A DNA stretch of 64,000 nt, from assembly GCA_010093815.1 (NCBI GenBank), contig ML996571.1. One strand, written 5' to 3'. A model generated the notes under the pieces. That model was given only the letters and a program-made list of their open reading frames with translations. It ran no database searches and was not told where the DNA came from. Made by a program: the position numbers and the translations under genes. The stretch comes from Pseudovirgaria hyperparasitica (taxonomy: Eukaryota). Below, one piece after another: positions 40,352 to 60,136 of this stretch (position 1 is its first letter; each line of letters starts with the position of its first letter).

Positions 40352-41482
40352 TCTTGTCGATGGTGATGTAATGCGACGAAGCAAAGAATTACAACCTTTA
40401 GTATGTAGTAGAACACAGAAGAAAGAACAAGCCGATTATGAAAGAAGAGATAGGAGTGAGGGTAAGGCGAAGTTGTGTGAGGTGTGTGAATCGTGCAATG
40501 GAGCGCGACGAACTTTTTTCTCGAGGGCTAGGATAAGACTTCGATCTAACTGCATTGGTGGTGTATATTGCCGCCTCAGGCATCACATACTGTCAATCCG
40601 CCTTAGGCGCGATTTTATGTCGCCATCATGGGATATCTCAACTACGCCGAGATATACTTATATACACACGCATTGGCTCAGAGACATACATACATCCATA
40701 GATGAAGTCTTGAATGATTGCTTTAATCCATAGACTGAGCTTTTCAGACAGGCTTGTCTTCCCGACAGAGGTTTCAACTTATCGAATCGACAGAAACATA
40801 TCACCCAGGAGATCTTCAATATTACCGCTTTCGCCCATCATCTCACGAATATGAAGCGCGATTCTCTCAATGCGCTGGCCCTGGCTTGATGACCAGTACT
40901 GTAATGCCCGCCAGCAAGCTGTCTCAATCCTTCCTCTCGATGGGAGTTAAATCTCAATGAGGAGGGGTTAATGAACAAGGATAGATCTGTGATCTAGTCG
41001 GTCAATACTGGTGCTTTGGAACGAGTCAGTCCTTGAGTTGTAATGAGCTGGAGAGAATATATTAGTCGAACGAAGCTAGCTGTTCTCAGCACAGTACCGA
41101 CGTACTATTACTCACACCAATAATGTATTACGAACTCTCAGATAGGTCTCATCTGACAATTGAGACTTCCACGGGATATGTGGCAAAGGAACTTGCTTAG
41201 ACACATAGGTAATGTACACCTATTGGTGGCATAGACTTTTGATACGGAGACTCGACCAACTAGAGCTAAAAAGGAATACCAAGAGCAACTACAGCGCAGG
41301 ACTGGCGAGACAACGAAAACAACAACATTCTGAAAACGTTAGTTTGCCAGACGCTAGATTAGATGTGGATCCTAGCCTTGGTATGTACGTCATATCATGA
41401 TGCATCGACTATTTGATAGCACATCCTATCACCAGATGCTAGGACTCAGCACAGAATCGGACCTCTCTGCGCTCGAGCTACC

Positions 41483-42391
41483 ATGTGTTCAGACCCATCT
41501 CTAGCCATACTCACTCCTTCTCCCGACATCTACGGTTATTACGCCGGTCGTACAGGGAAGAGATACCACTCTCCATCTCCAAACTGGCTCGACGACGGCG
41601 CATACACTCTAGGCGTCGCCTCCTATGCCATCGTATCCGCACCTCACGCTCTGGTCTTCGACGCACACATATCCCCCATCCACGCCTCTGCAGTCCTTTC
41701 GCACCTGCGCTCTCTCGGCGTGACGCAGGTGACATGAGTATACAGCCACGCACACAGAGACCACATCGCCGGCGCATCAACATTTCGCAACTCCGCCAAC
41801 CCACGAACCGTGGAGATAATCGCGAGCGAAGAAACGAAGAGACGCATCAAGGACGGACTGGAGAGCTTTCTATCAGGCGACCCGTCCTTCGAAGGCGTGT
41901 TGCCGACGCGCACATTCAATGGTATCCTGCCCCTTTCCGTCGGCGCGCTGGATGTGGAGCTCTGCTCGTTCAATATCCATACCTCTGACTCGATCGTTGT
42001 GTGGATCCCGAGTGTGAAGCTGCTTCTTGCCGGCGATACGCTTGAGGATACGTGCACTTTTATGGCTGAACCGGAAAATGGCGCCGTGCACTTGCGGGAG
42101 TTGGAGCGTATGGAGAGGGATTTCCCTAGTGCACGTATACTCCCAGCGCATGGGAGTGCGGAAAGAATCAATGAGAAGGGGTATGACATGCAATTTGTGG
42201 CCGCGACGAGGAGATATATTGCGGCTATGACGAAGGTAGGAGAGAGGGAGCCGAAGGCGTGGAACGAAAGCTTGCGTGAGGTACAGTGCGTTCAGAAGGA
42301 CTTGCAGAGAGAGGCAGTAGAGTACTGGGGCGAGTATGAGATGGTACATAAGGAGAATGTGCAGGCGCTGAGGAGTCTTACCGGCTCTTGA
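41483..42391 (+). pseudogene. Metallo-beta-lactamase-fold hydrolase gene interrupted by one in-frame TGA (41735-41737)
   Basis: One continuous frame reads ...LRSLGVTQVT*VYSHAHRDHIAG...NIHTSD...LAGDTLED...PAHG. All MBL metal-ligand motifs are present, and there is no plausible intron around the stop. Confidence 0.75.
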
Positions 42392-42508: not shown

Positions 42509-43633
42509 TTATAGCGGAGCGCACAAGAAGCATGCCCGCGGAAAGATAGCGGCACATGGTGTAAATGAATCATCTGTAGGGACTGAGATGCCATAGCACT
42601 TGCCCTTGTCCGGATTTGCTGCGCAATAGGTGCAGATCTGCTCCACCAGTATCTCTTCGAAACCAATCTCTATGGGGCCCGAATCCCTCTTTCCCCATAG
42701 CTTGAATTGTGTGTAAGCAAAGTGCTGTACGCTGAGCAGAGACCGAATGATCGCCTTCTCGTTAAGAACATGGTCGTTTTCTCCTATGGACACTCCTGCG
42801 TCAGTCTGGAGAAGGGCACCCAGGAAACAGCCAGTGAAGTGGCTTTGTGCCTCTCGCAGCCTTCTCAACAAGGCCTTGCGATCAAACGTATAGGGTGAAA
42901 GATCCTCTGGAAGAAAATAATTGGCTGGAACTACCTGTGTCAAGTGGATCGGCATTTGATCTATAGCGAGAGCCACTATAGTGCGTTCGCGTGAGAGTTC
43001 TAGTGTCATGTTGGTCTGGAGGCCGAACGCATTGAACAGGAATGGCCTGTGTATGTCTTCTAATGTTACAAGTGCAGTAGGCACGCGCAAGAGGCGGATG
43101 CGCCGGGCGTAGGCAAAAGCATGGTTGACCTTGAAGACCGCGAGGACGTATGGTAAAATCCAACTCGCGGACTTGTATCGACACCAGCTGAAGTCGATAA
43201 CATAGGTAAACCGATTGTGGACAACATCGTCAAATTCCTCCAAGATCTCGGGGTTTTCATCATGATAGAGCCACAGCCAGCGGCGGTAAGTTGCGAAACG
43301 CTTGACCATGTTTCGACAGTGACCCCATTCCGCTTTCCACACTTCATTTCGAAAAGTGCCAACGGGGGTCGGTGGAAGTAGGGCCCATTCTGTGGGCTCA
43401 TGTTCGACGAGGCATTGGAAAATTCGGACACGGAGCTCAGGCGGGAGCCTAACGAACAGAGTTTGAGGTGGTCTCTTGGGTTGAACGGCATCGGCCTTCA
43501 TCTTCATTATTCGCTCCTTGACATCTTTCGCAATAACAGCAATGCGATTCTGACCTCTGTACAAGCTGAAAAAGGGTCTGGCGAAAGTCCTGTTCCAGGC
43601 ACAGTTGATACGATCTACGAAGCGCTCATCCAT
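42509..43633 (-). CDS. F-box-like protein, paralog A of a local uncharacterised family; Cys-rich C-terminus
   Basis: LFVRLPPELRVRIF motif; aligns by eye end-to-end with 44146-45237. The start at MDERF (43633) was chosen by analogy, and the ORF is open to 43795. Confidence 0.78.
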   Translation of the reverse strand: MDERFVDRINCAWNRTFARPFFSLYRGQNRIAVIAKDVKERIMKMKADAVQPKRPPQTLFVRLPPELRVRIFQCLVEHEPTEWALLPPTPVGTFRNEVWKAEWGHCRNMVKRFATYRRWLWLYHDENPEILEEFDDVVHNRFTYVIDFSWCRYKSASWILPYVLAVFKVNHAFAYARRIRLLRVPTALVTLEDIHRPFLFNAFGLQTNMTLELSRERTIVALAIDQMPIHLTQVVPANYFLPEDLSPYTFDRKALLRRLREAQSHFTGCFLGALLQTDAGVSIGENDHVLNEKAIIRSLLSVQHFAYTQFKLWGKRDSGPIEIGFEEILVEQICTYCAANPDKGKCYGISVPTDDSFTPCAAIFPRACFLCAPL

Positions 43634-44145
43634 AACGATATAGACGACTGTGGAGACATCGAGATACGATGGGTGCTTCATTGAATCAACAGTACTACAT
43701 TTTAAAAGCACCAAGACTTCTGTGATCGTGAAACGCTCGGAATGACATTGGTATTTGGTCGGTGTTCCATGGCAATGCTCCGACATTGTTTTCACATTGA
43801 CTCACTTCACTTCACTAGCGATGTCCCGCCGACGTTCTCTCATTGGTCCACACCAACGAAAGAGGAAATTCGTGGTTATCGTTGGAGTTCTGTAACGTTG
43901 GAGGTTACTTTAAGGTTTGTGCAAGCTCGTACCATGTGTCTAGCTCCTGCGCAGAAGTCTTCACAGAGCAGAAGTCTTCACTGGTTAAACACATTATGTG
44001 TTATGAACACTATTCCGACTTGCGTTTCTTGACCATTTGTGTCACTTTGCGAAATTTCGTCTGTATAAGAACCAACAATGAACTTGATGTATTCTAAATC
44101 GTGGCTTCTTTGCTTGGCTCTCACCCCTTTTGGTCCGACAAAAAC

Positions 44146-45237
44146 ATGGATGATCAGACGTTTCTATACCGTACCAGGCTTCATGTCTCAGCGCACCTCC
44201 GCAAGGCCAAGTTCAGAGTTTTGAGACTTCATCGACGGTTGCTCGTAGCCCAGCTCAAGATCCAACGAGCGATCATTGACAAACGAGCCACCAGAGCCAC
44301 CGCGTCTCAGACCTTGTACACAAAGCTCCCCCCTGAATTGCGCATCCAAGTCCTCGAACTTGTCCTCGCCGATGAGCCCACGGTCCTACACATGCTCCCA
44401 CCAGGCCTTGGATCCAGCTTGGAACTGGCTGAATTCCAAGTCCACGACAATCAGCGCGCGGCGATGCTGAAGCATTACTGGAGCTACTTCGCCTGGCTTT
44501 TGACGTACCGCGAAACGCGCCCTGAGCTGTGGGACGAGTTGCAGGACGTTGTGCAGCGCCGCACGACTCTCGTCTTCGATTTTTCCTTCTTGAACGTTGA
44601 CACCGCGTTTGCAGACCTAGCGGATTATGCGTTCAATAAGATGATCCAGGACGTCACGCGCGACAATAGCATGTCCGTTCGGCATATACGCGTCACAAAT
44701 GTGCCGACCGCGCTTCTCATACTCCCGAATATACGCGCTTTCGGCCTGCGCACTAACATGGACCTCTACACCACTGCTGACCGCAAAATTAGATGCGTTA
44801 CGAAGGACGCGTTGCCGTCGTTCATGGAAGAAGCTAGTTGGGTTCACCTAGTGAGCCCTCTGAGGTCCATCATGGATCCGCTTGCCACTTTGCAGCAGAT
44901 AAACAAGGCACAGACACACATTCTGGAGTGCTGGCAGGGCGATCTATCAGATCCGACGAAGTATCAAGGCGAGAGTGAGAATCTCGTCACCAACAGGACA
45001 ATCATACAGTCACTATCTAATCTGCAGCGCTTTGCCAAGGCACAGTATACTTATTGGAATGCTGCACGAACGTGCTCAGAGGAAGGGCTTGATAAAGCCA
45101 CATTAGATCAGCTGTGCACGTACTGCGATGGGGTATGCAACGCAGGAATTCGGGGTGAGTGTACGCCAATAGACTCTCAAGTTGCTGGACGTGTTTGCCG
45201 GGATCAGGGGGAAGAATCATGTCCCTTTGAAGTATAG
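44146..45237 (+). CDS. F-box-like protein, paralog B; Cys-rich C-terminus
   Basis: LYTKLPPELRIQVL motif. It shares VPTAL, AFGLxTNM, AQxH and QxCTYC with paralog A. Confidence 0.8.
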   Translation: MDDQTFLYRTRLHVSAHLRKAKFRVLRLHRRLLVAQLKIQRAIIDKRATRATASQTLYTKLPPELRIQVLELVLADEPTVLHMLPPGLGSSLELAEFQVHDNQRAAMLKHYWSYFAWLLTYRETRPELWDELQDVVQRRTTLVFDFSFLNVDTAFADLADYAFNKMIQDVTRDNSMSVRHIRVTNVPTALLILPNIRAFGLRTNMDLYTTADRKIRCVTKDALPSFMEEASWVHLVSPLRSIMDPLATLQQINKAQTHILECWQGDLSDPTKYQGESENLVTNRTIIQSLSNLQRFAKAQYTYWNAARTCSEEGLDKATLDQLCTYCDGVCNAGIRGECTPIDSQVAGRVCRDQGEESCPFEV

Positions 45238-45289
45238 AGCGCTTGAGACATCTGGAATTTGAATAGCATTATTCTTTGAGCATTGTTAC

Positions 45290-47128
45290 CTACCACATCA
45301 TTATTGCAACAGGCACTTGAGCACTTATGAATGCAAGGATGACCTTCCACTGCAGCGCGAATCCGTCTGCGAACAAATGCAAGACATTGTCTCTCTCTGA
45401 TACAGACAAGGTCCGCACGGCCTCTGTTGATCGCAAGATCGCTCCAACCTCTTCGGCATCTACAATATGTCCCAAGCTGGGGTGCAGGCGAGCATTCAGC
45501 ACGGCTGTTATCACTCCAAGTCCAACAGCTCCTCCCAAATAGCGGAACTGAGTGTTGGCTCCAAGGGCCGAAGCTTAATCACGGTCAGCTAACATCGCTA
45601 TACCTGGATCGAAGACTTACAGATGTTCTTGCGCTCTACGATCTGTGGAATACAGGAGGTTGCGATCGCATTGCTAAGCCCTGAACCAAGCCCGAAAAGG
45701 ACTTGAAACCCGTATTGAGAGGCCTGGACTTCGGTAGAGAACGGGAGAAGCGCGAACCCAATGGCGCCAGCGAGCTGGAATGCAGCGCCTACAAGTAGCG
45801 CAAACGTTGGCTTGATCTTGAGTTTCTCGACTGTCGCGGCACCAGCCACTGCGCCAACCGGGACCATAACGATGAATGCAAGAAGACGTATACCAGAGGC
45901 AAGCGCGCTCAAAGAATGAATCGTTTGCAGGCGTTGAGGGATCTGAATGACGGCTGAGGTGAATGGAGCACCAACAAGAAAGGAAACCATGAAAAGCGCA
46001 ATGCACCTCCGCTCTACGAACTCCCAGGATAGGACAGGCACGAGAGCGCTATTAATCTGTGACCCAAGCGTCTCCCACGCGGTGAAGAGGAGGAGACAAA
46101 GGCCGGACACGAGAAGAAGCGCAATGATGAGTCCAGAGCTCCATTCGTAGTCGATTCCGCCCTCCTCGAGTGCAGTCACGAGAGGAACTGATACTCCCAA
46201 GAATAGCAAGGCTCCGACAATGTCTAGGCGTCGTAGCGAGGCGTACGAAATTCGATTACGCTCCTGTGGGCGATTGTGATAAGGGAAGAAGTTAGGGATC
46301 GCAATGCACAGGATGACGAAGGCGACTGCAGCAATTGGTACACTGGAACAATCAGTTTGTGTTCTTCACGGAATAGGATGGCAACGTACTTTATCCAGAA
46401 AACCCATCTCCAACTCGCGTGGTCTACAATCGCTCCTCCAATCAATGGTCCAATGGCAAACGAAACAGCCGTCACAGCCGCAACGAGTGAAACATATTTG
46501 GGGAAGTCCTCAGGCCGGATGGCTTCGGCGATCACAGTCATCGCCATATTATACATGCCAGCACCTCCGATACCCTGAAAGGCTCGAAGAACAATCCTGT
46601 TTACAAGTCAGTAGACGCCACTGATGGGCGCCACAACACTTACAGTTGCGTAGCAGTCTGGGCCGTAGCGCATCCAATCGAGAACGCGATAAACAAAGCA
46701 AAGGCCGCAAGCGTGAACGTTTTCCTACCGAGGACATGACTAAACTGTGCCCAGATGATTAGGAAGCCTGTACATCGTCAGAACTAATATACAACCAGCA
46801 GCCCAAACAGATCCTCACCAGTATAGGTCAACAGATATGAATTGACTATCCATGTGCTGTCACCATAGGACCCAAGATCATTTGTGATCCCCACTAACGC
46901 AGTCCCGGCGATAGACACTTCCATTGTCGCAAGGAAGATGCCCAGGTAGAGACTACAGATCGTCAGTATGTACTTGTAAAGATCCGCTTCGTAACCCGCG
47001 ACCTACCCGACGATAAGACATGACAGACGCCATCCTCGCAGAACAGAAGTATCCTGCTTCTCCTGAATCTGGGTATCCGAATCACTCGCATGCGAAGCGA
47101 CCCTCTCTGGCTCAGGTATACTTGACAT
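45290..47128 (-). CDS. MFS drug:H+ antiporter (DHA2), multi-exon
   Basis: ATG at 47128 (MSSIPEPER), several GT-AG introns, motifs GPLIGGAI, WRWVFWIN, SALASGIRLL and GGAVGLG. The exact 3' end is uncertain. Confidence 0.88.
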
Positions 47129-47598
47129 GATTGCAATGACAACACGACAACAAAAACGACAAGAAATCAGATATCCGGATGCAGAGCAGATCACAATGGA
47201 AGGATCAAGAGTTCACACGGGAAGCCGTATGGATGAATAGGACCCGCACGCTTGGACACGATTGCGTCCAAAGCCATAACGCCCACAAGCTTATCCCAAA
47301 CTCAAGCACCACACGCATGTCTCCGTCTTCATCGCAGATCTCGCCTTGGCTGTTGTAACAACCCGCCGATCGACGCCAGTCCCGCCTGGGGGCCAACGCT
47401 ACGTTTGCGATGAGTATATCCCAGCACGGCGCCCCCTCCCCCTGAGCTCACTCAGCCCTCTCCGGCACATCCGCTAATCAATCCGAACATCCATCCCTCT
47501 TCCGGCAACACGACATGACATCACATGCAGCCCTGTCACCAACGTCATATGTCTCTCGAAACACAACTCCGCATACTGATTCATTCATTACAGTCACT

Positions 47599-49308
47599 CT
47601 ACAAACTACCCCTGGAATATGACTCTACACGATCCATGCGCGGCCGCGCGCTATCCCGCCGCCAGCGCGCTTGCAACTCCGGCCCATTGAAGAAACTCAG
47701 AATATGATCGCGCTGCGCAAACTCGGCGCACGATGCGTCGGTACTGTCGTCGTTATGTGCGCGCCGCACGTCGAGGTGCCATAGGAGCGTTGCTATAATG
47801 GCGCCGACTTGCATGTATGCCATGCTTTGGCCTAGACATGCGCGGGGGCCTAGGGAGAAGGGCATCCAAGCGCGCGCAGCGCGAGTGTCGGGGGCGAGCC
47901 AGCGGTCTGGTTGGTACGCGAAGGGGTCGGGGAAAGCGTCGGCGGAGTGGTGGAGGCTGTATATACCTGTGCCGATGTCGGTGCCGGCGGGAATGTGGAT
48001 ATTGTTGGGGAGGGAGAGGCCCTGTGATTCGACTTCGCGGAAGAGGGCGCCGCCGACGGGGGGTGCAAGGCGGAGGGCTTCGGTGATGCAGGCGTGGAGA
48101 TATGTACAGCGGGCCATTGCGGTGCCGGAGCGGATGGATGACGGGTTGGGGAATGCGGAGCGGATTTCGGTGACGAGGCGGGTGTAGATTGAGGGATTGG
48201 AGGTTGTGTAGTGGAGGGTTGCGGCGAGCGCGGAGGCTGGTGTGCCGGAGCCGGTGACCATGAGGAATTTGCACTCGGACCAGAGCTGTGGGAGGAGTTG
48301 TTCTGGGGGTGTGCTTGGAGCGAGCGAGGATAGCATGGAGTGCATGAGGTTTGGCGTACGGTGGTCTGGCTTCTCGGTTGCGGCGCGGGTGTAGTCTTGT
48401 GCCATGGTGAGGAATTTCAGACCGTACCAAATGCCGCGAGGGCAGAAGAGCTTCTCGAGATGTAGGTTAATCAGGTCGAGGGATTGCACGAAGGCGCTGT
48501 TGAAGCGGTGCAGAGGCGCGATGGCGTCGACCATGAACCGATATGCCGACGAACCCAGGAGGTTGAAATTCTTGCCCAGACATGTCTCGCTCATGATATC
48601 AAAGACCATATATCGACCTACACGAACCGTCAGCACGCAGCCTAGCACATAGTAGAACGAATACGCAAACGCACACAAACTCGATATATCCACCGTATCA
48701 CTCCACTCCTCTCGTCCCTTTGGCGCAATCTGCTCCACAAACTCTCTTGCCTTGTGGAGAGCAAAGTCCTCTGTCCACGCCATCTGCTCTCCGGACAACG
48801 CCTTCCGCACCATTGCACGCTTCTCCGCACTCACTCCTTTATCATGCACATTATGCACATTGCGCGGCCCTGCGATGAGGCCCATGTACGCGCGCGCCTT
48901 CTTCACTTTGTCGGTGCGGTATATCACTATTCGCGTATATCAGTCCGTTTGATCATGCGCTTGATTATGTGCAGTGAGCTTACCATGCGCCGCGTCCACC
49001 GTGTTGAAGAGCAATTTGTTCGACCCATACCGCACCACGTCGCCGTGTTTTTGGTGTAGTCGGTATATATCCTTGTGCATGTCGCCTTTATACGCGTGCC
49101 ATGCTGCGTACCAGTCGCTTGCAGCGGCACATTTCGGGCCTGGGTAATGCGCTAGGGGGTGGAAGTACAGACGGTATATGGTGCGCGCGAGGAACTTTGG
49201 ATCTGATTAGTTGAGTGGGGACGTGAGAGTTTCAGAGATGAATACGTATGCTATGGCTATGAACAGAAACACCAGAATGGAGATCCGGTATGGTGAGATT
49301 TCAGACAT
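47599..49308 (-). CDS. Cytochrome P450 monooxygenase (CYP53-clan-like), multi-exon
   Basis: N-terminal TM helix, YRLYFHPLAHYPGP, K-helix EALR, PDRW and the heme motif FSLGPRACLG. The I-helix reads TGSGT. Confidence 0.93.
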
Positions 49309-50561
49309 GGTCTTTTTGCATCGTGGTGCTTCAAGTGTGGTGTTAAAGATGCTGATGTTTGTGTTTGATGGTTGATTACCTAGGGAAAAGTGTAACCTTC
49401 AAGACAGGAGGACGAGCTACAGAGCCGCACTGCAGGGTCACCAGAGGAGCCGACGCCGCCCGGGAGGATGCACATGCATGGAGGACACAATGATAGAATG
49501 ACAGGACAACAAGGCAAAAGACAAGCGCCCCGTTCTCGCTATCACTACCATTCACGCTGCATCAGAGGGCCAGGCAATGAGACAAGTGCGTCATCCACTC
49601 AACCGTCCGGCTCAGAACTGCCGTTTCTATTTTCGGGATATTGCTGCATGCGGCAATGATGATCAAACATAACAATCGTGTGTCCTATCTCTCTGCCCGG
49701 CTGAATGCCTCGGGGGAGGGGGGTTTGCACGGAGCACAGCAGATCCGCAGCGCCAAAAGTTCCAAAGTGCCGGAAAAGCGGAGCAGCTAGCGTGCGCCTC
49801 ACCCGGCAGCGGTGAATGACAACAGACGTCAACTTGCAGTGCTACATATTATGCTATCTGCGCAGTGCTCTACCATTGATATTATCATCCATGCGATAAC
49901 TCACCATAGCTACGTCTCATGCGTACCAATTCTCACGGCGAAGCCATAGATATACACGTACCATCACAGCATCCTCATACCGAGGCGCATCTAAGCACGG
50001 CCATGTCTTAAACTTCCGCATACGGGCGGCGCCATCGCTCGATCCGATGCGTCATGTCTAGCGTATCCATACCAAGCTATGCAAGTATGAGAGATCGTGG
50101 CCCCCATTCACGGTTGTGTGGGTCGTCTTTTGACCTGTCTTGGACTTAGTGCGCTGCGTGTATATCTTGTCACGCGCTCGCTGGGGTAAGACGGGCTGCT
50201 GGGCAATGCGATTCCGATGGCAGTTTTGCGTGTGGCGTTCTTGGGTGTGGGGTGCTTTCTGACGTGGTGCGTGGGAATAGGGAATAGGAATTAGTGAGGT
50301 TGTACTCGGTGTCGAGGTATGCGACGGGGTTCCGTCTACAAGCCCAGGAGGGTGGGCATGTTGAATGTGAATGATATGGACGCTCTACGAAGGTTGGGAA
50401 GGAATAATGGAGGGGATGGTAAATCAGTAGATTTGGTATATACATTTATTGTGTTCGCTAATGCTATAGTCATGATGCAACGACAACATATCGTTCAAGA
50501 CACCCGCTCCACTCCATTCATCCAGTCAGACCCGCGTAATGATCATAGGCCCTTCACCAAA

Positions 50562-51758
50562 TCACACTCTACTATGCTGCGCAGTGACCCTCACATCATG
50601 CCTGACATGAATCTGCCCCGGCATCCTTGGCAAATCTCTGTCCATCTCAAAACTCCTAGTCCCATCACTACTTCCCTTAGACAGCAGACTCGGCTCCGAC
50701 GAGTCCCGCTCCGTCGCATGCGTCGTCTGATCGAACACCATCGAGTTTCGACTCCGCGATGACAAGACGTTGCTCGTCGTCCTGCGCAGCCACTCGTACG
50801 CCGACGTCATCTGCTTGCTGTACACCAGCTTGGCCAGGATCGGGCGGTACGTCAATAGACATGCCGAGATGAGGTAGATGCTGGCCTCGACAATGACCCA
50901 GAGGATCAGGGGCGAGGCATACCATGTTGGGTCGGATGAGTACTCGTTTAGGAAGAACTGCGCAAAGCGGATAACGGATGTGATGAGACCCCTGTATATG
51001 TTTAGCGATTGTGAATCCACAAGGCGGGCGAGGAGCTTACACTGAGGCGATGAGGAAGGTCGCGTAGAGACCGAGACGCACGTGGTTTGAGACTTGTAGC
51101 TTGCGCACCACGGGGATAGGGAGGAGGAGCATCGCAACATCGGTAACAATGTTTATGAACGGGCCCCAGATGAGGAGGGCTTGAAAGTTGAGGCAATGAC
51201 GGCCAGGCTTTGTTAGTTCCCAGGAATACTCCTGGCCGTTGCACTGGAATCCGACGAGGAAACAGTTGATGACGGTTGCTATGCCTAGTGCAGCGATGAG
51301 AATCCAACAAGCGATACGGCTGAACTTGTCGATGAAGATGCGTAGGTAGAGTACTAAGACTGAGATCTTAGGTAGCACAGAAGCGATGGTGAAGGTAATG
51401 GGTACTGCATAGAATGCATTGCGGCCAAAGTTGGGAATCTGTTCGGGTTCGTTCGTCATCACCCAAGCGATGCGACGGCCAGCGCCCCATCGTGGTGCAA
51501 CTGTGGATTAATATCAGAATGGACCATCTTATTATTGTGATACTTTGACATACGGAGTCCATCAATGCAAAGGCCCGTCACTGTTAGCCATGCTAGCACC
51601 ATGAGAAAGTCATCCCAGTACCACGGCGTCTTCTGCTGTTGTCGCGATATAAATCGAAGAATCACGGCAGTTTGATTCAACGCAAGAAAGACAGCAGCAG
51701 TGACAATCAGTTGATTGGAAGAGTCATCGTAGAAACCAGGAGGTATCTCGGTAGGCAT
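50562..51758 (-). CDS. PTH11-like (fungal rhodopsin-domain) 7-TM integral membrane protein without a CFEM domain
   Basis: Introns 51553-51501 and 51040-50992. Motifs WDDFLM, KISVLVLYLRIF, NIVTDVAMLLLPIP and W.IVEASIYLISACL. Confidence 0.9.
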
Positions 51759-52095
51759 TTTGAGTATGAGTGATTTGAATGACAAGTATGAACAAAATCA
51801 AAACAGAGAGATAGAGGTCAGACCCATGTCTTATGAATCCCGGGAACCTCATCGGTGATATAATTGGTGTCGGTCAATAATGCTCGTTGATCATAGTAAG
51901 CTAGCCTGCAGCGAGACAAGCTCGGATACACTGATCTACTAGAACTACCGATTGGGGCCAAATGCGGCCACATACACATACGTAATGTGGGTAAGACTAG
52001 GTCGTATAATTGCTTACGTTATTTGAATGCTCGGACGACGAGAATTACGAAGGAGTTCTCATACTTGTATTCTAGCCTAATTTCCATAGTGTTCA

Positions 52096-53850
52096 TCATA
52101 CAGTATAAACTTTTTCAATCTCGTCTTTGAACTGCTCCATGGCCATCTTGCGCTGAACATAACCTTTTGGAGACTTGGGAAGATGTTTCCCTTGCGGTAC
52201 AAAAACAACGTGATGTCTCTCGATCTTTATTTGCGGCGGAAACAGGTTGTTACAATCATTGATTGTCTCCCAGACCTGGTCAATGCTTGTTGCTAGGTCT
52301 TCACACGCTGCGGCTTCCAGTTCGACCAACAATGCTGTATAAGGTCTTTGAGTCCCTACCATTGAGACTGCTGCCACGAGAGAATGTGCTGATACTCTAT
52401 CTTCAAATTCGAGGGGATTGACGGTATCACCTGTACTCAGGATGAGTATATCGTCTATCCGCCCTTGGTACATCCAGAAACCTTCACGCTCAGGATCAGG
52501 CATGAATGTGTCTCGGGTCGAGAACTCTTGGAGCTCTGGAAACAGCTTAAACACAGCCTGCTCATCCTCCGGGTCTCTGTTCCGGACTACTACGGCCTCA
52601 AAGACCTCTTCGTTCGGCACTTTGCGGAAATCGAGTCCCTCTCCTGGATGGAACATTATACCTGTTGTTATCAGAAAAGGGTCAATGAGAATGATTCGAG
52701 GTATTGACTTACTATTCCAAGCACCTGCGTCCCATGGTCCGGCCGGCGATATCTTGTGTAGAACCCCTATGTCACTAGTTCCGTACATTCCCATAAGCCG
52801 GAAACGACGGGCTAGAATATTTCCAGACGTCTTGGAGATCGGTCCGCCTCCAAAGCCAATCGTCGTGACTTTTGCGGCGACCTCTTCTAGCAAAGAAGGG
52901 TTTGTTGCAATGTTGTCCAGGATGAAAGGGGGTGCGATAATCATAGAAGGATCGTTGCGTCGTACGAGCTCCATTACGGTGTCGATATTGAGAGGGGAAG
53001 TAGGCAAGGGGAACAGAACAGTGATCTGATTGGCCAGCGCTCCAAAGAAGTTTGGGAACAGACTGCTACTCAGATTCGGAGGCGCAACTACGCACAGTTC
53101 AATGCCATGCGTGAAGCGTTCACGACTCGAATGGCCATCTGGAACTGAGCTTTGATTCCGTTGGATCCACGCAGCAGCCCAGTCATGTGTGAGAGTGATA
53201 GGCTTAGGTGGTCCAGTAGTCCCAGACGTATGTATGACCACCAAGGGCTCTCCACGGGCTGATTGGAAGGTCTTTTCGTAAGGATAGTGCTCCACCACAG
53301 TCTCGAGCAGACTCATGAGGGATGGGATCTCATGGATGTCGAGCTGCATAAACTCTGACAGAGACGAAGCCAGAGGGAAATCAGCAGAAGCTACGAGGAA
53401 CTTTCTGCACTCCAGTCGTTTCAATAGCTGACTCAGTCCTGCAGCAGGATATGCAGCGGAAGGGAAGACCATCTTAATGGTGTCAACTGCGTTTTTTTGG
53501 ACTTGACAATTTGCTCTGCGTACCTTATAGCCTGCTTTGACTGCAGCGAGAATTGTAATGATGTATCGGATATCCCATGGACCAACGTATGCGAGAGTCT
53601 CAAAGTTGAGAGACTTCCCAAATCGTTTCTCCAACCACATCGCTAAACCATTCACAGCATTGGCCAGTTTCGAGTAGGTGACCTTCTGGAAGCCATCTTG
53701 GAATGTCTGGTCGTTTCGTGGTATCTTAGCCCACACGGTATCAGGTCTGTAGTTTGCGAGACCATCAACTACGTTAACAAGGAGTTGTTTGTTTTGTGCT
53801 CTCGGACTTGGTGGGCGTGCCGAGCCTTCTGTGAACTGAAGTGATGGCAT
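52096..53850 (-). CDS. Stand-alone adenylate-forming enzyme (A-domain of the fungal NRPS-like/carboxylic-acid-reductase type, lacking T and R domains)
   Basis: Motifs HTSGTTGPPK, YGTSD, TRD, GRIDD and PKSPKG. Two in-frame 51-nt introns (53523-53473, 52712-52662). The stop follows directly after the A-domain. Confidence 0.88.
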   Translation of the reverse strand: MPSLQFTEGSARPPSPRAQNKQLLVNVVDGLANYRPDTVWAKIPRNDQTFQDGFQKVTYSKLANAVNGLAMWLEKRFGKSLNFETLAYVGPWDIRYIITILAAVKAGYKVRRANCQVQKNAVDTIKMVFPSAAYPAAGLSQLLKRLECRKFLVASADFPLASSLSEFMQLDIHEIPSLMSLLETVVEHYPYEKTFQSARGEPLVVIHTSGTTGPPKPITLTHDWAAAWIQRNQSSVPDGHSSRERFTHGIELCVVAPPNLSSSLFPNFFGALANQITVLFPLPTSPLNIDTVMELVRRNDPSMIIAPPFILDNIATNPSLLEEVAAKVTTIGFGGGPISKTSGNILARRFRLMGMYGTSDIGVLHKISPAGPWDAGAWNSKSIPRIILIDPFLITTGIMFHPGEGLDFRKVPNEEVFEAVVVRNRDPEDEQAVFKLFPELQEFSTRDTFMPDPEREGFWMYQGRIDDILILSTGDTVNPLEFEDRVSAHSLVAAVSMVGTQRPYTALLVELEAAACEDLATSIDQVWETINDCNNLFPPQIKIERHHVVFVPQGKHLPKSPKGYVQRKMAMEQFKDEIEKVYTV

Positions 53851-54414
53851 GGATTCGATACTTGGATTTCTATGTAGTCTTCTTCGGGTCTCTCAATGTC
53901 CTTATGCGTATAGCAGGCTTGCTTACGAGTGTGTAAGATTGCGATTGAAATGAATCTTACTCATCTGGGGTCGTCGATCTGTTCAACGTGGCAGTCACAT
54001 TGCATCACTGGTCGGCTAGACATTCGGCTGAACACGTTGATCAGAGGCTCTATTTCAGGCAACGGACCGAAGCCTGTTGTAGTAGGTGGAGCGTCGGTGT
54101 GTAGGATCAACAAGCTTATGCAGTGCGAAGATGAGGTTTGCAAGTTGCCCGGAGCTGCCCTGCGTACAACGAGTACCGACGTCCGGGCTTGCGATTGGTC
54201 GAGCTGGAGGGCGCATATGTCAGATAGTCTATAATATCACCGCATTGGGTGGGGGCCGTAAATATCCATCGAAGATGGCGCTGTGATCTGTCATGCGCAG
54301 ATCGATGTCAGTCTAAAAATGCCAAACGATGAAGATTTAGTATATTGCTGCTGATCAGCTCACATGCATGCATGTATACACTCTCAGCCTGTTTACATTG
54401 GCGATTCATGCTTA

Positions 54415-55583
54415 TCACATCTTGCCTTTGATACCTTGCTGTCGCCTCAGATCGATAATAGCACAGAGATGTTGCGCTAAGGCTACCAGTTCCATACCTT
54501 CGTCCAGAATCTCAACCTTCATCGACATGCGAGAGTTCATAATTCGCTTCGCAGTAGCACGCACATAGAGCCACTTTACTCCTTTCTGAGGCAAACGTTT
54601 CCTGATCTCCAAATTCATGGACTGGGAGCTGATCATTGCGGGAGCAATGTAAGAGCCCGAAGACTCGTCCAGGGTTTCTGCGATACCTGCATTACGGTTC
54701 TTCCTCTGCTGTAACCCAATCTTCACACTAGATGCTTGCGACCCAGTGGATCCTGGGAAGTAGTTGTCTAGGATAGGGAGAGAAACATCGGCTACGAATC
54801 CAAGCATATCGTTTGTAAACCAGTTGTCTGGGTCTGTTGGAGTGATCCACTGCTCGCGGTAGCTTGGATCCTCAAGGTCGACGGGAACGAAGAACTTCAG
54901 ATATGAATGGACTTTGCGAAAACCTTTGGGGTTGTAAGGTGTAAGGATAGAGATCCATCGATCGTCTGCATCATCTGAGAGTTTCGAGAGGTTTACCTCT
55001 GTTGGTCTGGGGTTGATATTCCAGGGTACATCAAACGAGAATCCGTTCGCTGGTTGAGCGATATTGGTCAAGCTTTATTAAAACAGTGAGCTCAGGAAAC
55101 TGGGCGAGGATGGGATGCTTACTTCAAGAGCCCTACCATAGCATCTTTGCCACCCTGTTGTATCGTAGCTCTCACCGTAGATGCGGATTTCCCAATATGC
55201 ACTGGGGTGATGAAGATGCATGCTTCAGTGGGCGTGAGATACCGCAGGAATTGCCATTGAATGTTGATCACATCTGGCTGGTCAAGATCTGGATAGTTCT
55301 TTGATATGTAGTCATTGACAGCTTTGTGGGCTACCGCAACAGCAGCTCCTCCGAAGATTCCTAACAGTATCGTTCAATAGATATATGGAAGAGCAGTGGA
55401 TGCTACATACGAGGACCAAAAGTGTATGCGCTTGGAATCTTGATCAAGTATTCACCCTCTAACTTTGATGATGGTTGCAACGCTGAAAACCTGGGAGGCA
55501 TCACTGATCCAGCCATTAGGCGTATATGCTCACTTGAGTGATCAGGGCTGTTTGATTGATGAACAATTACCCTGTGTCAACAT
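54415..55583 (-). CDS. Double-hotdog thioesterase-like protein (acyl-CoA thioesterase family), multi-exon
   Basis: Upstream exons read by eye (MLTQ|VMPPRF...YTFGP|..IFGGAAV...DQPDVINIQWQFLR...GKSASTV) join ORF 54415-55071, which carries LGFVAD, MNLEIRK, WLYVRA and DEGMELVALAQH. Confidence 0.7.
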
Positions 55584-56307
55584 GAAATGGTGCATGAACA
55601 AACAAAGGAATCGTAACGGCGTAAGAGCCGCGGCACAGCCAGTGGCTGGCCCCCACCGCTCATCCGAGTCAGGGGTGGGTCTGCTGGCAGATAGGGTGCG
55701 TATTTTGTGGCATGGTTGACGCCTCTACGTCATAGCTATTTAGTCAGACTCCTTTGATTCAGCTTCATTCATTTCTGGTGTCAGACGTCAGGTCTCATCT
55801 CATCTCCTCTGCTGGCCAGCAAGCAAAACACTGCCTCCTCTTGAACCGTATGATGGCTGTGGTAACAACAAGGCAATCCTGTACTGAGTGCCCAGTCCCA
55901 AGAGGCCCGTTCGCCTTGTCGGAGTATCAATGTCCGCTAATGGGACTATTACTTCTTTAATGCTGTCGATCTGATCCAGTAGACTTGATGATCCGCTAGA
56001 TACAGGATTGGGACAGCCCCGAGGCCTCCCTCCCCCCTGTTGTCCATCGGCGAGACAGCCTTGCGGAGACCAGGCAATGGGCCAAGCGATTGGTAACGCT
56101 GCTCCGGCGAGTGACGCTGATACTGTACTCTATGAAGACAAACCTTCTGCCCATGACAGGCATTAGCGCTATGACATTAGTCGCAGCTTTCATAAAAGAC
56201 CTTCGCCGCCGAACTGGCTCTTCTAAAGCCACAAATGGTAGAAGAATCCTACAAAGGCACCGTTCTGCAGGGACCATTCGTTCTGCCGCGCATTTGCTCC
56301 TCTCATC

Positions 56308-57602
56308 ATGACTGCTGATTATGATTCACATCCTTCTGACCTGGCGGGTCCGGGTGTGAGTACTGACAGCTCCCGTAGATATGGGTAATGCACTGACAAC
56401 AATTCTAGCCTCAGTCGGGAGTGACGATTGACAGTCTCAAGAAAGCAATTCCAAAGCATTGCTTCAAATCATCATATCGACAAGGATTCACTATTCTGTT
56501 TCAAGACCTCTCCACCGCTGCCCTCCTCGCCCTCCTAGCAATCAAATTCATCCCCCTAATCCCATCAACCGCCCTTCGTATCGCTGCCTGGGCTATATAC
56601 GGCCTAACCCAAGGCTTCGTCTTCACTGGCATCTGGGTCATAGCCCACGAGTGCGGCCATTATGCATTCACCCCGTCCAAGCCGCTCAACGACACTCTTG
56701 GCTTCATCCTACACTCCTTCCTGCTAACCCCCTACTTCTCCTGGAAATCCACGCACCGCAGACACCACATATACGCCAACAACATGGCCCTCGACCACAA
56801 CTATGTCCCGCCGCGCGCAGACGAGTACTCTGCCTCCTTCTCCTCCCGCATCGAAGACCTCACCGAAGACGCCCCCCTCGTCACCGCCCTACGCATCCTG
56901 CTCCAACAACTTCTCGGCTTCCCCGCCTATCTGGCCCTCAACATCACCGCCGCCCCATCCTCTCTTCCTGCGAAACCCTCCTCGAGGCCCCTCGAAAACG
57001 GCCACTTTGCCCCCTGGGGCGCGCTCTTCCGCGCCGAGGAGGCGCACCTGATCCTCGCCTCAGACGCCGGACTCATGGCCATGTGCGGCATCCTACACTA
57101 CGCGCGACAGCACGTCGGGATCGCGACTGTATTCGCAGTATACGTCGTGCCGTACCTTTGGACAAACCACTGGATCGTAGCCATCACGTACCTACACCAC
57201 ACCCACACAGATGTACCCAAGTACGAAGCAGACGCATGGAGTTTCGTGCGCGGCGCAACATCGACAGTAGACCGCGATCTCGGCATTGTGGGCCGTGTGT
57301 TCATGCATGGCATCGTGGATTACCACGTGGTGCATCACCTGTTTCCGCGCATCCCTTGCTATCATGCGCGCGAGGCGACGGAGGCGATAGTGCCTGTGCT
57401 TGGCGATGCATATCATAGCGCGAAGACGGAGAACTTTATGGCGTCGTTGTGGCGCACTTTTGTCGGGTGTCAGTATGTCGTGCCGCGAGGGGAGACGGCG
57501 GGGGTGCGGGATGGGAAGCTGTGGTATAAGGGTGGGAGGTGTCCGCCTGTGCAGACTGGTATGGGAACGAAGAGGTGGTTGATCTGGCCTGATGTGCTGT
57601 AG
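56308..57602 (+). CDS. FAD2-like (delta-12/omega-6 family) membrane fatty-acid desaturase or variant
   Basis: Exon 1 56308-56355, intron 56356-56408 (GTGAGT..TAG). AIPKHCF motif and three His boxes: HECGH, HRRHH and HVVHH. Confidence 0.93.
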
Positions 57603-59110
57603 GAATTACATACGAGGAATGAAATTGGATATAGAGACCGAGTTTATTTCATGATATATACCCAGATTCGTTATCATTCATTTGAGAACCATTAGTCGTA
57701 CCTCTCAAGAGACAACCAGCTACTTTGACCTTGACCTTTAGGCCACCCTGGTATGCGACAGCTCCTACAGTCAGCAGTGTGGCTCCATAAGGTAGTTTAC
57801 AACTTCCTGTTACACTGACAGCAGATGCGGCTAGAGACGATCAATACGATACATACGAGGCGAAATTTCGAGAAAGGAGCTGCATCACTACGTTCCCCAC
57901 TAGTCGTGGACTATTTCCGCGAGTTCACTCATCCATAAGAATGACTATTTTGAGCTATTTTCACAAAAATCATGAATGCCCTGATGCATTCCGCCGCCTC
58001 GGACTCGATATAAAGTGCCTACCTCAGTCGCCCAGAATGGGTTTTATATTGGACCCATCATGCAACTTTTTTCTAACGGACGTGGATGTATCAGACCATC
58101 TTCAAATGCCACATGCATGAGTGTTGATAACATCGAGTACGATGCGCGGCGACGTGAACAACGTACAAGATGTGCCGTCACAACGCCGTAACGACTGTCG
58201 TGAAAGAGACTTGAGGGATGGATGCCTCTCGGCGTCCTTCTAACACCCAAAGACTCCTATTGAGCCGATGTGAAAGGCGTTAGTAGGTAGTCTATATGGT
58301 ATAGACTTCTATGTCAAAGAGCACGCGACGAATTTTTCATACTGACCGGACAAGTTCTGCTGACCAGAAGAAAGATGTGCACTATGTACTGAGGCATGAT
58401 GGAGAGATACAACGCGCACACTCAAGACAGCCATCAGCGCCCCCCGTCCGACATTCATTCTGTGATGTAAAGTGTTGGAATATGATCGAATACAGTGCAT
58501 TAAACAAAGAGCGCGCCACCAACTGAGTCAATCATGTTCCACGGACGACCAATTCGTAAGAGCTGAATGATTGCTGCATCACGGGTTGGCTTATCCACCA
58601 CTCGCTGCCATATTTGAAGGGATCTTTGAGAAAAGCCTATGCTGCTATGCAGGAAGCATTCTACAATACTGCCGACAAGAGCGAACGGACAGAACTTGCG
58701 TTCGGCGAAATTCTACGAGAACTTGAGACTGGAAGGGATATTATACTGGAGACCATCCCCCTATACCGCGCAACCATCAACACCGCTGTATTCTTTTCGG
58801 AACGCCTCATGGAGTCTCATGGCCTCTTCGCTAGCCAAGCTCTAACAAGGCGGAAATTGACTCTTCAGGCGTTCGCTCTTGACAGGTCAAACGAATAAAT
58901 TGTCGCATCATTTATACATATATATATTCATTCTTCTGACGTTGTTGACGAAATGGTGTCCCTTGACAGTGCAAGACCAACCTTGTGCACCGCATCGCAC
59001 AACGTACATCATGCCTGTCATATACCATACCGAAGCTTCAACCATCATACTGTATTACATACGTTCTGCTGAACGATTCTGTGTGCAAGCAAAACCCGAT
59101 ATCACTGCAT

Positions 59111-60136
59111 ATGAAGACGAAGAAAGAAAGTGATTCGTGCCTGCCAAAGACAGGAGAGACTCCGAAGCCACGTAATCCGCGGCTACAGCTGGATGGACTT
59201 CCCACAGAACTCCTCGTCCAGATCTTCCAATATGTTGCGTTCGACGAGTATATGGGCCATCGCGGTCTGTTCGAATTGAGGTGGAAAGAGACTTTACAAG
59301 ACAGAAGTGACGTATGGAAGCAATACATGCGGCGTACCACATCACAAGACCCCAAGTCGCATCCATCCTGGATATATCTACGCGATGTGATGAAAGCACA
59401 CTATTCCACCCGGCTATCAGCCATCGCTGCCAGTCTTCTAGCAGATTCAATGTGCCTGCTAGATCTCAGATACACAATGGACGCTGAGATCAAGACTAGG
59501 AAGCTAAACACCCAGATGAAACAACTGAAAGAGCTGTGTGAGCTCCTGCATATAAACGGGTTGTATCACATGCGGCATCTCGTGCTCCGGCGCGTACGCT
59601 TTGCGATATGCACCCTCAGCCTCGACACAACCACAGCCGTCGACTTCACAGCGACATTTATATTGGACATATCAGACGACGGAAGGCATGCCAAAGTCAC
59701 TGTTGTCCCCGAATTCCACCACCTAGTACAGACATATAAGCACACGAACCATACCATGCGCGCAGAAACAGGGGCGGACCAGGCATCAGAGACGAAGCAA
59801 CTAACGAGCTCGCAATTATCGAAGCTGGAATGGGCGCTGCAGGATGCGCAAGAGCATTTCAGGCGCTGGTGGGAGAGCGACATACAGACACTCTTGCGAA
59901 ACCGGAGCAAAAGGCATTTCGACATGCTTGATAAATCGCTGCGGAACCTTTGGGCGGTTTCGGTGGCGCAGCGACGTGAGTCGTTTGATTTTGATGATGT
60001 GCAGCTCAGGCACGAGTTGAGGGAGAATGGGTTTATGATGCATCAAGGTCTTCCAGAATGTGCGGCTACTGGGCTCCATGGATACAGTAGAGGTCTTGAT
60101 TTCCAGGAGAACAGAATGCTTGTAACCTCTCACTGA
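59111..60136 (+). CDS. F-box-like protein, distant paralog C of the 42.5-45.2 kb pair
   Basis: LDGLPTELLVQIF motif. RHLVLRRVRFAICTL, DAQEHF and KSLRNL..AQ match blocks in paralogs A and B. The start is uncertain. Confidence 0.7.
   Translation: MKTKKESDSCLPKTGETPKPRNPRLQLDGLPTELLVQIFQYVAFDEYMGHRGLFELRWKETLQDRSDVWKQYMRRTTSQDPKSHPSWIYLRDVMKAHYSTRLSAIAASLLADSMCLLDLRYTMDAEIKTRKLNTQMKQLKELCELLHINGLYHMRHLVLRRVRFAICTLSLDTTTAVDFTATFILDISDDGRHAKVTVVPEFHHLVQTYKHTNHTMRAETGADQASETKQLTSSQLSKLEWALQDAQEHFRRWWESDIQTLLRNRSKRHFDMLDKSLRNLWAVSVAQRRESFDFDDVQLRHELRENGFMMHQGLPECAATGLHGYSRGLDFQENRMLVTSH

What the first reader, a model, noticed from the sequence alone, without database searches (positions are those of the whole stretch)
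45290..57602. Candidate 'coreless' fatty-acid-derived secondary-metabolite cluster
Seen: six contiguous accessory genes, namely a DHA2 efflux MFS, a P450, a PTH11-like membrane protein, a stand-alone adenylation enzyme, a hotdog thioesterase and an FAD2-like desaturase (the last two divergently transcribed). There is no PKS, NRPS, terpene synthase or transcription factor. Established: these families activate, desaturate, oxygenate, release and export acyl chains. Inference: they form a pathway to a modified fatty acid or oxylipin-like product that backbone-based cluster finders would largely miss. I do not recognise a described cluster with this exact composition.
Basis: partly seen in the sequence, partly recalled or inferred. 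Interest (0 to 1): 0.75.

Follow-up and report, generated by a model that had tools for sequence, protein, structure and literature searches.

The report
Conserved fungal fatty-acid tailoring gene cluster
Six neighbouring fungal genes with no standard assembly-line enzyme appear to form a small pathway that modifies and exports a fatty-acid-derived molecule, and a similar co-regulated set sits in the crop pathogen Sclerotinia, where its product is unknown.

Summary
All six genes are intact, and all 15 introns are skipped in contigs of one sample. No PKS, NRPS or transcription factor lies nearby.

The grouping is unlikely to be chance. The desaturase belongs to a nine-member FAD2-like subclade (98/92) spanning four fungal classes. 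Of four orthologues of the stand-alone adenylating enzyme, three have the desaturase or the thioesterase as next accession. Sclerotinia sclerotiorum has a six-gene run: A enzyme, membrane protein, subclade desaturase, unannotated gene, P450, MFS. Published tables show it co-regulated. It was catalogued as anonymous cluster 07_2, so miners do not wholly miss it.

New clue: the thioesterase is TesB-like and its family carries peroxisomal signals, which points to beta-oxidation trimming.

Best reading (0.55): a C18 acyl chain is desaturated and oxygenated, activated without a carrier protein, probably shortened in peroxisomes, released and exported.

Limits: substrate and product are unshown. Only the desaturase was compared with Sclerotinia by sequence. 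This copy has lost a conserved adenylation His. New variant of a known kind; interest 0.6.

The parts
45290..47128 (-). MFS efflux transporter (TRI12/DHA2-like), 6 exons, 530 aa
   Evidence: Pfam; 5 introns skipped; open frame
47599..49308 (-). Cytochrome P450, 4 exons, 514 aa; N-terminal anchor, ExxR, PxRW and heme Cys motifs present; I-helix has Gly where the acid of the acid-alcohol pair usually stands
50562..51758 (-). PTH11-like 7-TM protein (PF20684), no CFEM domain, 3 exons, 364 aa
52096..53850 (-). Stand-alone adenylating enzyme of the fungal NRPS-like (A-T-R) type without T or R domain, 3 exons, 550 aa (the deposited 567-aa model retains intron 52662-52712)
54415..55516 (-). TesB-type double-hotdog acyl-CoA thioesterase, 3 exons, 328-333 aa, PTS1-like C-terminus (non-canonical tripeptide)
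56308..57602 (+). Divergent FAD2-like di-iron desaturase, 2 exons, 413 aa, three His boxes; member of a cluster-linked subclade
47387..47394 (+). Shared upstream 8-mer TGGGGGCC (before MFS)
   Evidence: picked post hoc
50099..50106 (-). Shared 8-mer (791 bp before the P450 start)
54250..54257 (+). Shared 8-mer (before the A enzyme)
55648..55655 (-). Shared 8-mer (divergent TE/desaturase promoter); the PTH11-like gene has a version one G shorter at 51953

Best explanation
A conserved, co-regulated six-gene cluster that makes and exports a small modified fatty acid, using primary fatty-acid supply instead of a PKS/NRPS backbone. SHOWN: six intact, spliced genes; linkage of parts in four other fungi; co-regulation of the Sclerotinia run (published tables). 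INFERRED from family knowledge, order uncertain: (1) the ER di-iron enzyme adds a double bond, or a related oxidation, to a C18 acyl chain; (2) the ER P450 oxygenates it; (3) the carrier-less A enzyme activates the acid with ATP and most likely passes it to CoA; (4) the acyl-CoA enters peroxisomal beta-oxidation and the TesB-type thioesterase releases it at a set chain length; (5) the MFS exports the acid or its lactone. The 7-TM protein has no assigned step. My odds: real functional cluster about 0.9; biosynthetic and fatty-acid-derived about 0.55-0.6; with peroxisomal trimming about 0.4.
For: Linkage: adjacent accessions for desaturase + A enzyme in Bathelium (KAI9654965/66) and Circinaria (KAL9120028/29); A enzyme + TE in Hymenoscyphus albidus (CAG8971674/75). 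That is 3 of the 4 non-self A orthologues found. The desaturase subclade has 9 of 40 rows at UFBoot 98 / SH-aLRT 92 and holds all four desaturases known to be linked; its members span Dothideo-, Lecanoro-, Eurotio- and Leotiomycetes (class of Sclerotinia recalled). S. sclerotiorum sscle_07g056570-056620 = SS1G_03440-03435: A-only enzyme 548 aa, integral membrane protein 350 aa, desaturase (P0017, 54% to ours), unannotated gene, P450, efflux MFS. All six are 6- to about 1,800-fold higher in broth than in two hosts, while 8 genes to the left and 3 to the right are absent from that table. The five cluster genes queried stand consecutively in FunGeneClusterS co-expression lists, 10 times each, against 0 for 056560. 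Five of six are up at 12 hpi on rapeseed. The genome has two other, housekeeping-like FAD2 loci, so this copy is extra. TE: AlphaFold pLDDT 93.7, best PDB match E. coli TesB (E 1.3e-18); Asp in 66 of 69 and Thr/Ser in 68 of 69 aligned rows; PTS1-like ends in 84 of 156 relatives (37 strict) against 1 of 120 desaturases. One 8-mer is shared by 4 of 5 upstream regions, p about 0.03 against real non-ORF DNA.
Against: No substrate, product or activity is shown. Only the desaturase could be compared with Sclerotinia by sequence; the other matches are family labels from supplements, and sscle_07g056600 is unidentified (blank Pfam, 'mgPKS'). The Sclerotinia A enzyme was not retrieved (that search also missed this genome's own paralogues). 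P450, MFS and PTH11-like linkage was not tested in the lichen fungi. Bogoriella's A enzyme showed no neighbour in my lists. The H. albidus desaturase found is of another subclade, on another contig. Related fungal NRPS-like A domains mostly take aromatic acids (recalled), and the best PDB sequence match is a 4-chlorobenzoate CoA ligase (E 1.6e-13). This copy has Leu for the A4 His that three orthologues keep (the Bathelium model lacks the stretch), Asp for the A5 Glu, and the longest desaturase branch of the subclade (0.91). The chickpea data are weak alone (7,341 genes down), and both broth-control studies used the same medium. Our TE ends in a non-canonical tripeptide and the A enzyme has no PTS. 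The motif was chosen post hoc and also occurs 3 times elsewhere in the window.
Confidence: 0.55

Rival explanations
1. Catabolic or detoxifying module: the genes modify, activate, degrade and pump out an external acid (host lipid or aromatic acid) rather than make a product.
For: CoA ligase + peroxisomal TE + P450 + efflux pump also fits catabolism. The Sclerotinia P450 is labelled benzoate 4-monooxygenase-like. The best PDB sequence match of the A profile is an aryl-CoA ligase. A TE paralogue on contig C10 sits beside a 4CL-like ligase ending in a PTS1.
Against: The Sclerotinia run is far higher in host-free broth than in two plants. A dedicated membrane desaturase is hard to place in breakdown. 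The carriers have unrelated hosts: lichen fungi, a rust parasite and plant pathogens.
Confidence: 0.15
2. Tailoring satellite of an unlinked PKS or FAS: the substrate is a polyketide acid made elsewhere in the genome.
For: No backbone gene is in the cluster; split clusters occur in Sclerotinia (botcinic acid); the unidentified Sclerotinia gene carries the label 'mgPKS'.
Against: The Sclerotinia co-regulated run ends at six genes and cluster 07_2 lists no type I PKS. FAD2-type enzymes act on membrane-lipid acyl chains (established knowledge). No PKS lies in the window or in 20 kb to its right.
Confidence: 0.13
3. The A enzyme is a carrier-free ligase that joins the modified fatty acid to an amine or alcohol (amide or ester product), with the thioesterase only supplying or editing the acid.
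For: No T or R domain and no PTS on the A enzyme; the A4 motif has Asn for the usual aromatic residue in this copy and the three orthologues that keep the stretch, a sign of an altered second half-reaction or pocket.
Against: No amine-supplying gene is in the cluster; a TesB-type partner implies acyl-CoA.
Confidence: 0.1
4. A real ancestral cluster that is decaying or repurposed in this genome, or only a conserved A/TE/desaturase trio with chance neighbours.
For: A4 His lost and a long desaturase branch here; the named Botrytis TE relatives are fragments of 91-199 aa; GC3 varies from 0.50 to 0.70 across the six genes; P450, MFS and PTH11-like orthology is untested.
Against: All six frames are intact and spliced; Sclerotinia has at least five of the same six gene types together and co-regulated; the shared motif spans both halves.
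Confidence: 0.07

Closest known systems
Sclerotinia sclerotiorum predicted cluster 07_2 (Graham-Taylor et al. 2020, PMC6941272)
   Same: Six-gene core with A-only NRPS-like enzyme, integral membrane protein, same-subclade desaturase, P450 and efflux MFS; co-expressed; P450 next to MFS in both.
   Different: Published only as an anonymous 28-gene prediction with no product and no mention of these genes in the main text. Gene order differs (A, membrane, desaturase, unknown, P450, MFS). Its fourth gene is not confirmed as the thioesterase.
Bacterial fatty-acid-derived alkyne/polyyne clusters (caryoynencin; jamaicamide JamABC)
   Same: Adenylating enzyme + desaturase without de novo chain assembly (JamA/JamB/desaturase and a C18:1 FAAL for caryoynencin, passages of PMC11837247); thioesterase and P450 in the caryoynencin cluster (recalled).
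   Different: Those load an ACP and use several desaturases (recalled). Here there is no carrier protein, one FAD2-type enzyme, an A domain of fungal NRPS-like type and a TesB-type hydrolase.
Divergent FAD2 enzymes: Claviceps CpFAH12 hydroxylase, plant acetylenases (falcarindiol cluster recalled)
   Same: An extra FAD2 paralogue that departs from the housekeeping Thr three residues after His box 2 (Ala in 40 of 40 clade rows with the motif).
   Different: CpFAH12 needs Ile there and its Ala variant is mostly a desaturase (1.7% ricinoleate, 29% linoleate). The plant acetylenase marks (Gly before box 1, (D/N)VX(H/N) before box 3) are absent from this copy.
Fungal NRPS-like A-T-R carboxylic acid reductases
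   Same: A domain of the same type (AMP-binding_C_3; structural look-alike TM 0.89 to an A-T-R cluster).
   Different: No T or R domain. The orthologues that are complete end at the same place (545-552 aa), and two paralogues in this genome do too, so the stand-alone form is a recurrent type, not a truncation.
Pathways finished by peroxisomal beta-oxidation and a gate-keeping acyl-CoA hydrolase (mycophenolic acid MpaH; plant jasmonate) - recalled, no call
   Same: Proposed logic: activate, shorten, release at a set length.
   Different: MpaH is an alpha/beta hydrolase acting on a PKS-derived substrate. Jasmonate needs lipoxygenase and allene oxide synthase/cyclase, which the cluster lacks.

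Membership tests
Biosynthetic gene cluster | Contiguous, intact, expressed genes | tested here: met
Biosynthetic gene cluster | Linkage conserved in distant genomes | tested here: met
   Pairs in 3 of 4 A orthologues; six-gene run in Sclerotinia, by sequence for the desaturase only
Biosynthetic gene cluster | Co-regulation | tested here: inconclusive
   Shown for the Sclerotinia run in published tables; not testable for this genome (contigs of one sample); shared motif p about 0.03
Biosynthetic gene cluster | A cluster-dependent product | not testable with these tools
   needs knockout or heterologous expression
FAD2-type membrane desaturase | PF00487 and three His boxes | tested here: met
Housekeeping oleate delta-12 desaturase | Groups with housekeeping FAD2; Thr at +3 after box 2 | tested here: not met
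   separate clade, Ala at +3
FAD2-derived 12-hydroxylase (CpFAH12) | Ile (or Leu/Val/Asn/Cys) at +3 after box 2 | tested here: not met
   Ala; the Ala variant of CpFAH12 is mainly a desaturase
FAD2-derived acetylenase (plant) | Gly before box 1 and (D/N)VX(H/N) before box 3 | tested here: not met
   Ala before box 1 here (Gly in 4 of 7 subclade rows with the motif); box-3 motif absent; plant rules may not hold in fungi
NRPS-like enzyme (A-T-R or A-T-TE) | T domain and terminal R/TE domain | tested here: not met
   no PP-binding or NAD_binding_4; stop follows AMP-binding_C_3; definition in PMC11026467
ANL adenylate-forming enzymes | P-loop (A3), A5, A7 Asp, A8 hinge, A10 Lys | tested here: met
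   A5 Glu is Asp here; motif names recalled
ANL adenylate-forming enzymes | A4 His | tested here: not met
   Leu in this copy, His in three orthologues
TesB-type acyl-CoA thioesterase | Double-hotdog fold | tested here: met
TesB-type acyl-CoA thioesterase | Asp / Thr(Ser) / Gln catalytic set | tested here: met
   D205, S259, Q310 of the 328-aa model; equivalence to TesB residues recalled, not superposed
Peroxisomal matrix protein | C-terminal PTS1 | tested here: inconclusive
   non-canonical tripeptide after basic residues here; canonical or near-canonical in the closest relatives; 84 of 156 in the family
Cytochrome P450 monooxygenase | Heme Cys motif, ExxR, PxRW, membrane anchor | tested here: met
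Cytochrome P450 monooxygenase | I-helix acid-alcohol pair | tested here: not met
   Thr kept, acid replaced by Gly; conservation in orthologues not tested
PTH11-like receptor | PF20684 and seven helices | tested here: met
   no CFEM domain
PTH11-like receptor | Ligand binding and G-protein coupling | not testable with these tools
   none
DHA2 MFS exporter | 14 transmembrane helices | tested here: inconclusive
   9-13 by hydropathy scan; TRI12 and MFS_1 hits
Bacterial polyyne cluster | FAAL plus ACP plus several desaturases | tested here: not met
   no ACP, one desaturase; definition partly recalled

The most novel reading that the evidence does not exclude
A self-contained fungal lipid-signal module: the cluster makes a chain-shortened oxylipin-like autoregulator, exports it, and senses it through its own PTH11-like 7-TM protein, which would stand in for a pathway transcription factor. 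It would be shared, patchily, by lichen fungi, a rust hyperparasite and Sclerotinia, where it is high in older broth culture and low in planta. It would give a first ligand for a cluster-encoded PTH11-like protein.
Probability: 0.12. Interest if true: 0.85.

Novelty: new variant of a known kind. Interest (0 to 1): 0.6.

Why it matters
It defines a compact six-gene pathway type in ascomycetes in which a divergent FAD2, a carrier-less NRPS-like A domain and a probably peroxisomal TesB replace a PKS/NRPS core. A counterpart lies in S. sclerotiorum, a genetically tractable crop pathogen with known on/off conditions (broth against plant), so the product can be found by knockout metabolomics. It would also assign functions to three orphan groups: the divergent fungal FAD2 clade, stand-alone NRPS-like A enzymes, and cluster-encoded PTH11-like proteins.

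Tried and rejected
Metagenome scan with the A alignment: 2 loci at 28% over 136 aa, unrelated. Run search: no RNA holder listed by record; the splicing evidence comes from laying the contigs. Contig depth was not used to rank genes, and the uncovered bins at 44002-44668 and 58009-58675 are no evidence. AlphaFold of the A enzyme on 5 sequences: pLDDT 47.7, discarded, no fold search. Word-index TE search found 1 relative besides itself, superseded. P450: PDB sequence and Atlas searches gave only generic P450s. Paralogous desaturase on contig C1: no cluster in 40 kb, by eye. Truncated-NRPS reading rejected. Hydroxylase/acetylenase prediction from residues: not supported. Jasmonate reading rejected: no lipoxygenase or cyclase in the cluster. 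FarA/B-type CCTCGG sites (motif recalled) are not enriched: 3 in cluster intergenics, 18 in 46 kb background. Attempts to identify sscle_07g056600 failed: supplement searches of PMC7847169 (0 hits, 2 files unreadable), PMC6417074, PMC6941272 file 5 (no useful hit), paper searches. Five look-ups in earlier findings returned nothing.
Full report
1. WHAT IS THERE. The window is G000:C7:494186-558185 of a 35.4-Mb fungal assembly. Proteins identical to three of its genes are named by their source as Pseudovirgaria hyperparasitica, a Dothideomycete that parasitises rust sori (abstract of PMC3317363). Pfam confirms the six families. Contigs of two runs (one sample, one study, library not on record) skip 15 GT-AG introns across all six genes, and these junctions give open frames of 530 (MFS), 514 (P450), 364 (PTH11-like), 550 (A enzyme), 328-333 (thioesterase) and 413 aa (desaturase). 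The deposited 567-aa A model wrongly keeps one intron. Flanking genes are also covered, and contig depth cannot rank genes, so this shows expression, not co-expression. No backbone synthase or regulator was seen in the window or 20 kb to its right.

2. IS THE GROUPING CHANCE? Probably not. (a) The A search gave 10 hits among 7,999 scored candidates; 4 are non-self orthologues at 47-49% (49-52% against the spliced model). For 3 of these 4 the next accession is a relative of a cluster gene: the desaturase in Bathelium (KAI9654965/66) and Circinaria (KAL9120028/29), the thioesterase in Hymenoscyphus albidus (CAG8971674/75). Bogoriella (11-kb contig) showed none in my lists. (b) In a tree of 40 of the 120 listed desaturase hits, the window's enzyme lies in a 9-row subclade (98/92) with the Bathelium, Circinaria and Sclerotinia proteins plus Viridothelium, Diploschistes, Pyrenula, Botryotinia convoluta and one unnamed record (a quick tree of 68 rows gave the same group at SH-aLRT 94). 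Linkage is shown for 3 of the 8 non-self members and untested for 5. The genome's other clade paralogue (C1, 53%) has no cluster, and the H. albidus desaturase found is in another subclade on another contig. (c) Of 150 thioesterase hits I looked up 18; 7 had names, and 5 of them were H. albidus or Botrytis/Botryotinia, the latter fragments of 91-199 aa.

3. THE SCLEROTINIA COUNTERPART. The subclade member sscle_07g056590 lies in the run 056570-056620. Supplements give: A-only NRPS-like enzyme (SS1G_03440, 548 aa), integral membrane protein (03439, 350 aa, PANTHER PTHR33048, which I recall as the PTH11-like family), oleate delta-12 desaturase-like (03438), an unannotated gene (056600), P450 (03436) and efflux MFS (03435). 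In PMC6934579 (supplement 2; 29 of 41 matching rows seen) all six are differentially expressed, with CPM in broth/canola/lupin of 623/3.7/5.7, 49/0.03/0.1, 17/0.2/2.0, 293/21/29, 33/0.13/0.18 and 387/3.4/11. Genes 056490-056560 and 056630-056650 are not listed (I used the CPM columns because the direction column is inconsistent). In PMC6941272 (supplement 3) the five cluster genes queried stand consecutively in co-expression lists 10 times each, 056560 never; nine parameter sets were run. In PMC5372324 five of six are up 2.7-5.3-fold at 12 hpi on rapeseed relative to inoculum. In PMC8106195 all six are down at 12 hpi on chickpea, which is weak alone as 7,341 genes fall. That 056600 is the thioesterase follows only by elimination and from the Botrytis relatives; I could not confirm it. 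Orthology by sequence is shown for the desaturase only (54%). The run was catalogued as 28-gene cluster 07_2 with no product.

4. THE PARTS. Desaturase: three His boxes; an extra copy beside two housekeeping-like loci. The position three after box 2 is Ala in 40 of 40 clade rows with the motif, and Thr in 41 of 78 other rows, of which 33 also have Ala. In the Claviceps hydroxylase this position decides hydroxylation, and the Ala variant is mainly a desaturase (PMC6771796 sections 18-19). Plant acetylenase marks (passages of PMC3554562) are absent. So: a divergent desaturase of unknown regiochemistry, with no sign of hydroxylase or acetylenase. A enzyme: NRPS-like A-domain type without T or R; stand-alone forms of this size are common in Ascomycota and occur again in this genome. 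P-loop, A7, A8 and A10 residues are kept; the A4 His is Leu and the A5 Glu is Asp in this copy only. Thioesterase: confident model, closest solved fold E. coli TesB, conserved Asp/Ser/Gln. Its family is marked for peroxisomes: 84 of 156 sequences (fragments included) end in x[KRH][LM], 37 strictly, against 1 of 120 desaturases; the closest relatives end in SKL or QKL, ours in GKM after basic residues. P450: standard motifs, but Gly replaces the I-helix acid. 7-TM protein: PF20684, no CFEM. Regulation: an 8-mer occurs in 4 of 5 upstream regions and in a shorter form in the fifth; background is 4 in 46 kb of non-ORF DNA, and 2.9% of random five-region sets share any 8-mer that widely. It was chosen post hoc and I name no factor.

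5. HOW IT MOST LIKELY WORKS. ER desaturation and P450 oxygenation of a C18 chain, ATP-dependent activation without a carrier protein, peroxisomal trimming ended by the TesB-type hydrolase, and export by the MFS (0.55 for a biosynthetic, fatty-acid-derived pathway; about 0.4 with trimming). Every chemical step is inference from family knowledge. Rivals: catabolism or detoxification (0.15), satellite of an unlinked PKS/FAS (0.13), amide/ester ligase (0.10), decayed or partial cluster (0.07).

6. WHAT IS KNOWN. It works like bacterial fatty-acid-derived alkyne clusters (passages of PMC11837247) but lacks their carrier protein, and like pathways gated by a peroxisomal hydrolase (recalled). It is not an NRPS-like A-T-R cluster by definition (PMC11026467 passage). 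I found no paper describing a product for this composition. Searches: 0 papers with all six terms; 125; one listed; 0; 86; one listed; 1; 57; 20 listed, all tomato gene ids; 7; 22; 21 listed. I judged these by listing and abstract start, plus passages of PMC10455296, PMC12230676 and PMC7719232 with nothing on it. The library lacks most subscription chemistry journals, and supplements of PMC7719232 and of preprints were not seen, so a described product cannot be excluded.

7. VERDICT. Real, conserved, co-regulated in a relative, product unknown. New variant of a known kind. Interest 0.6: not a surprising class of enzyme, but a well-bounded orphan pathway with a direct experimental handle.

Noticed in passing
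window 42509-43801 (-) and 44098-45237 (+); also 58967-60136 (+), 22961-23827 (+): The cluster is flanked by orphan ORFs with weak F-box-like starts; the first two are divergent paralogues (29% over 303 aa, E 3e-38). This suggests a plastic region.
   Followed up: partly
window 45278-49337: One 4,018-nt contig spans the spliced P450 and MFS genes and their 470-bp gap: overlapping UTRs or read-through; a contig does not show a single transcript.
   Followed up: no
window 52662-52712: An in-frame 51-nt intron is spliced in the contigs but retained in the deposited protein model P0123.
   Followed up: yes
window 61956-62897 and L011:1790-2925 (just beyond the right end): A PAQR/HlyIII membrane protein and a fatty-acid-hydroxylase-superfamily gene (PF04116) lie 4-9 kb right of the desaturase; lipid-related, membership of the cluster untested.
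   Followed up: partly
window 41420-42391 (+): Metallo-beta-lactamase-fold gene (Lactamase_B), apparently with a frame break or intron near 41737.
   Followed up: no
L018:2611-5929 (G000:C10): A paralogous hotdog thioesterase ending SKL sits divergently beside a 4CL-like acyl-CoA ligase ending AKL: a second ligase/thioesterase pair, both with PTS1.
   Followed up: partly
L015, L016, L017 (G000:C3, C7, C16): Three more NRPS-like A genes; at least two end right after the A domain.
   Followed up: partly
window 11774, 24454, 30784: The other three copies of the shared 8-mer also fall outside the long ORFs listed, so it may be a general promoter element.
   Followed up: no
window 20389-21990 (+): HET-domain protein with a weak ankyrin tail.
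   Followed up: no
window 26204-29386 (-): 1,060-aa Pro/Thr/Ser-rich ORF with internal repeats and one hydrophobic segment, mucin-like.
   Followed up: no
P0138, P0153, P0173, P0193: The closest named thioesterase relatives in four Botrytis/Botryotinia species are fragments (91-199 aa), and the B. cinerea desaturase hit is of another subclade: the cluster may be decaying in Botrytis.
   Followed up: no
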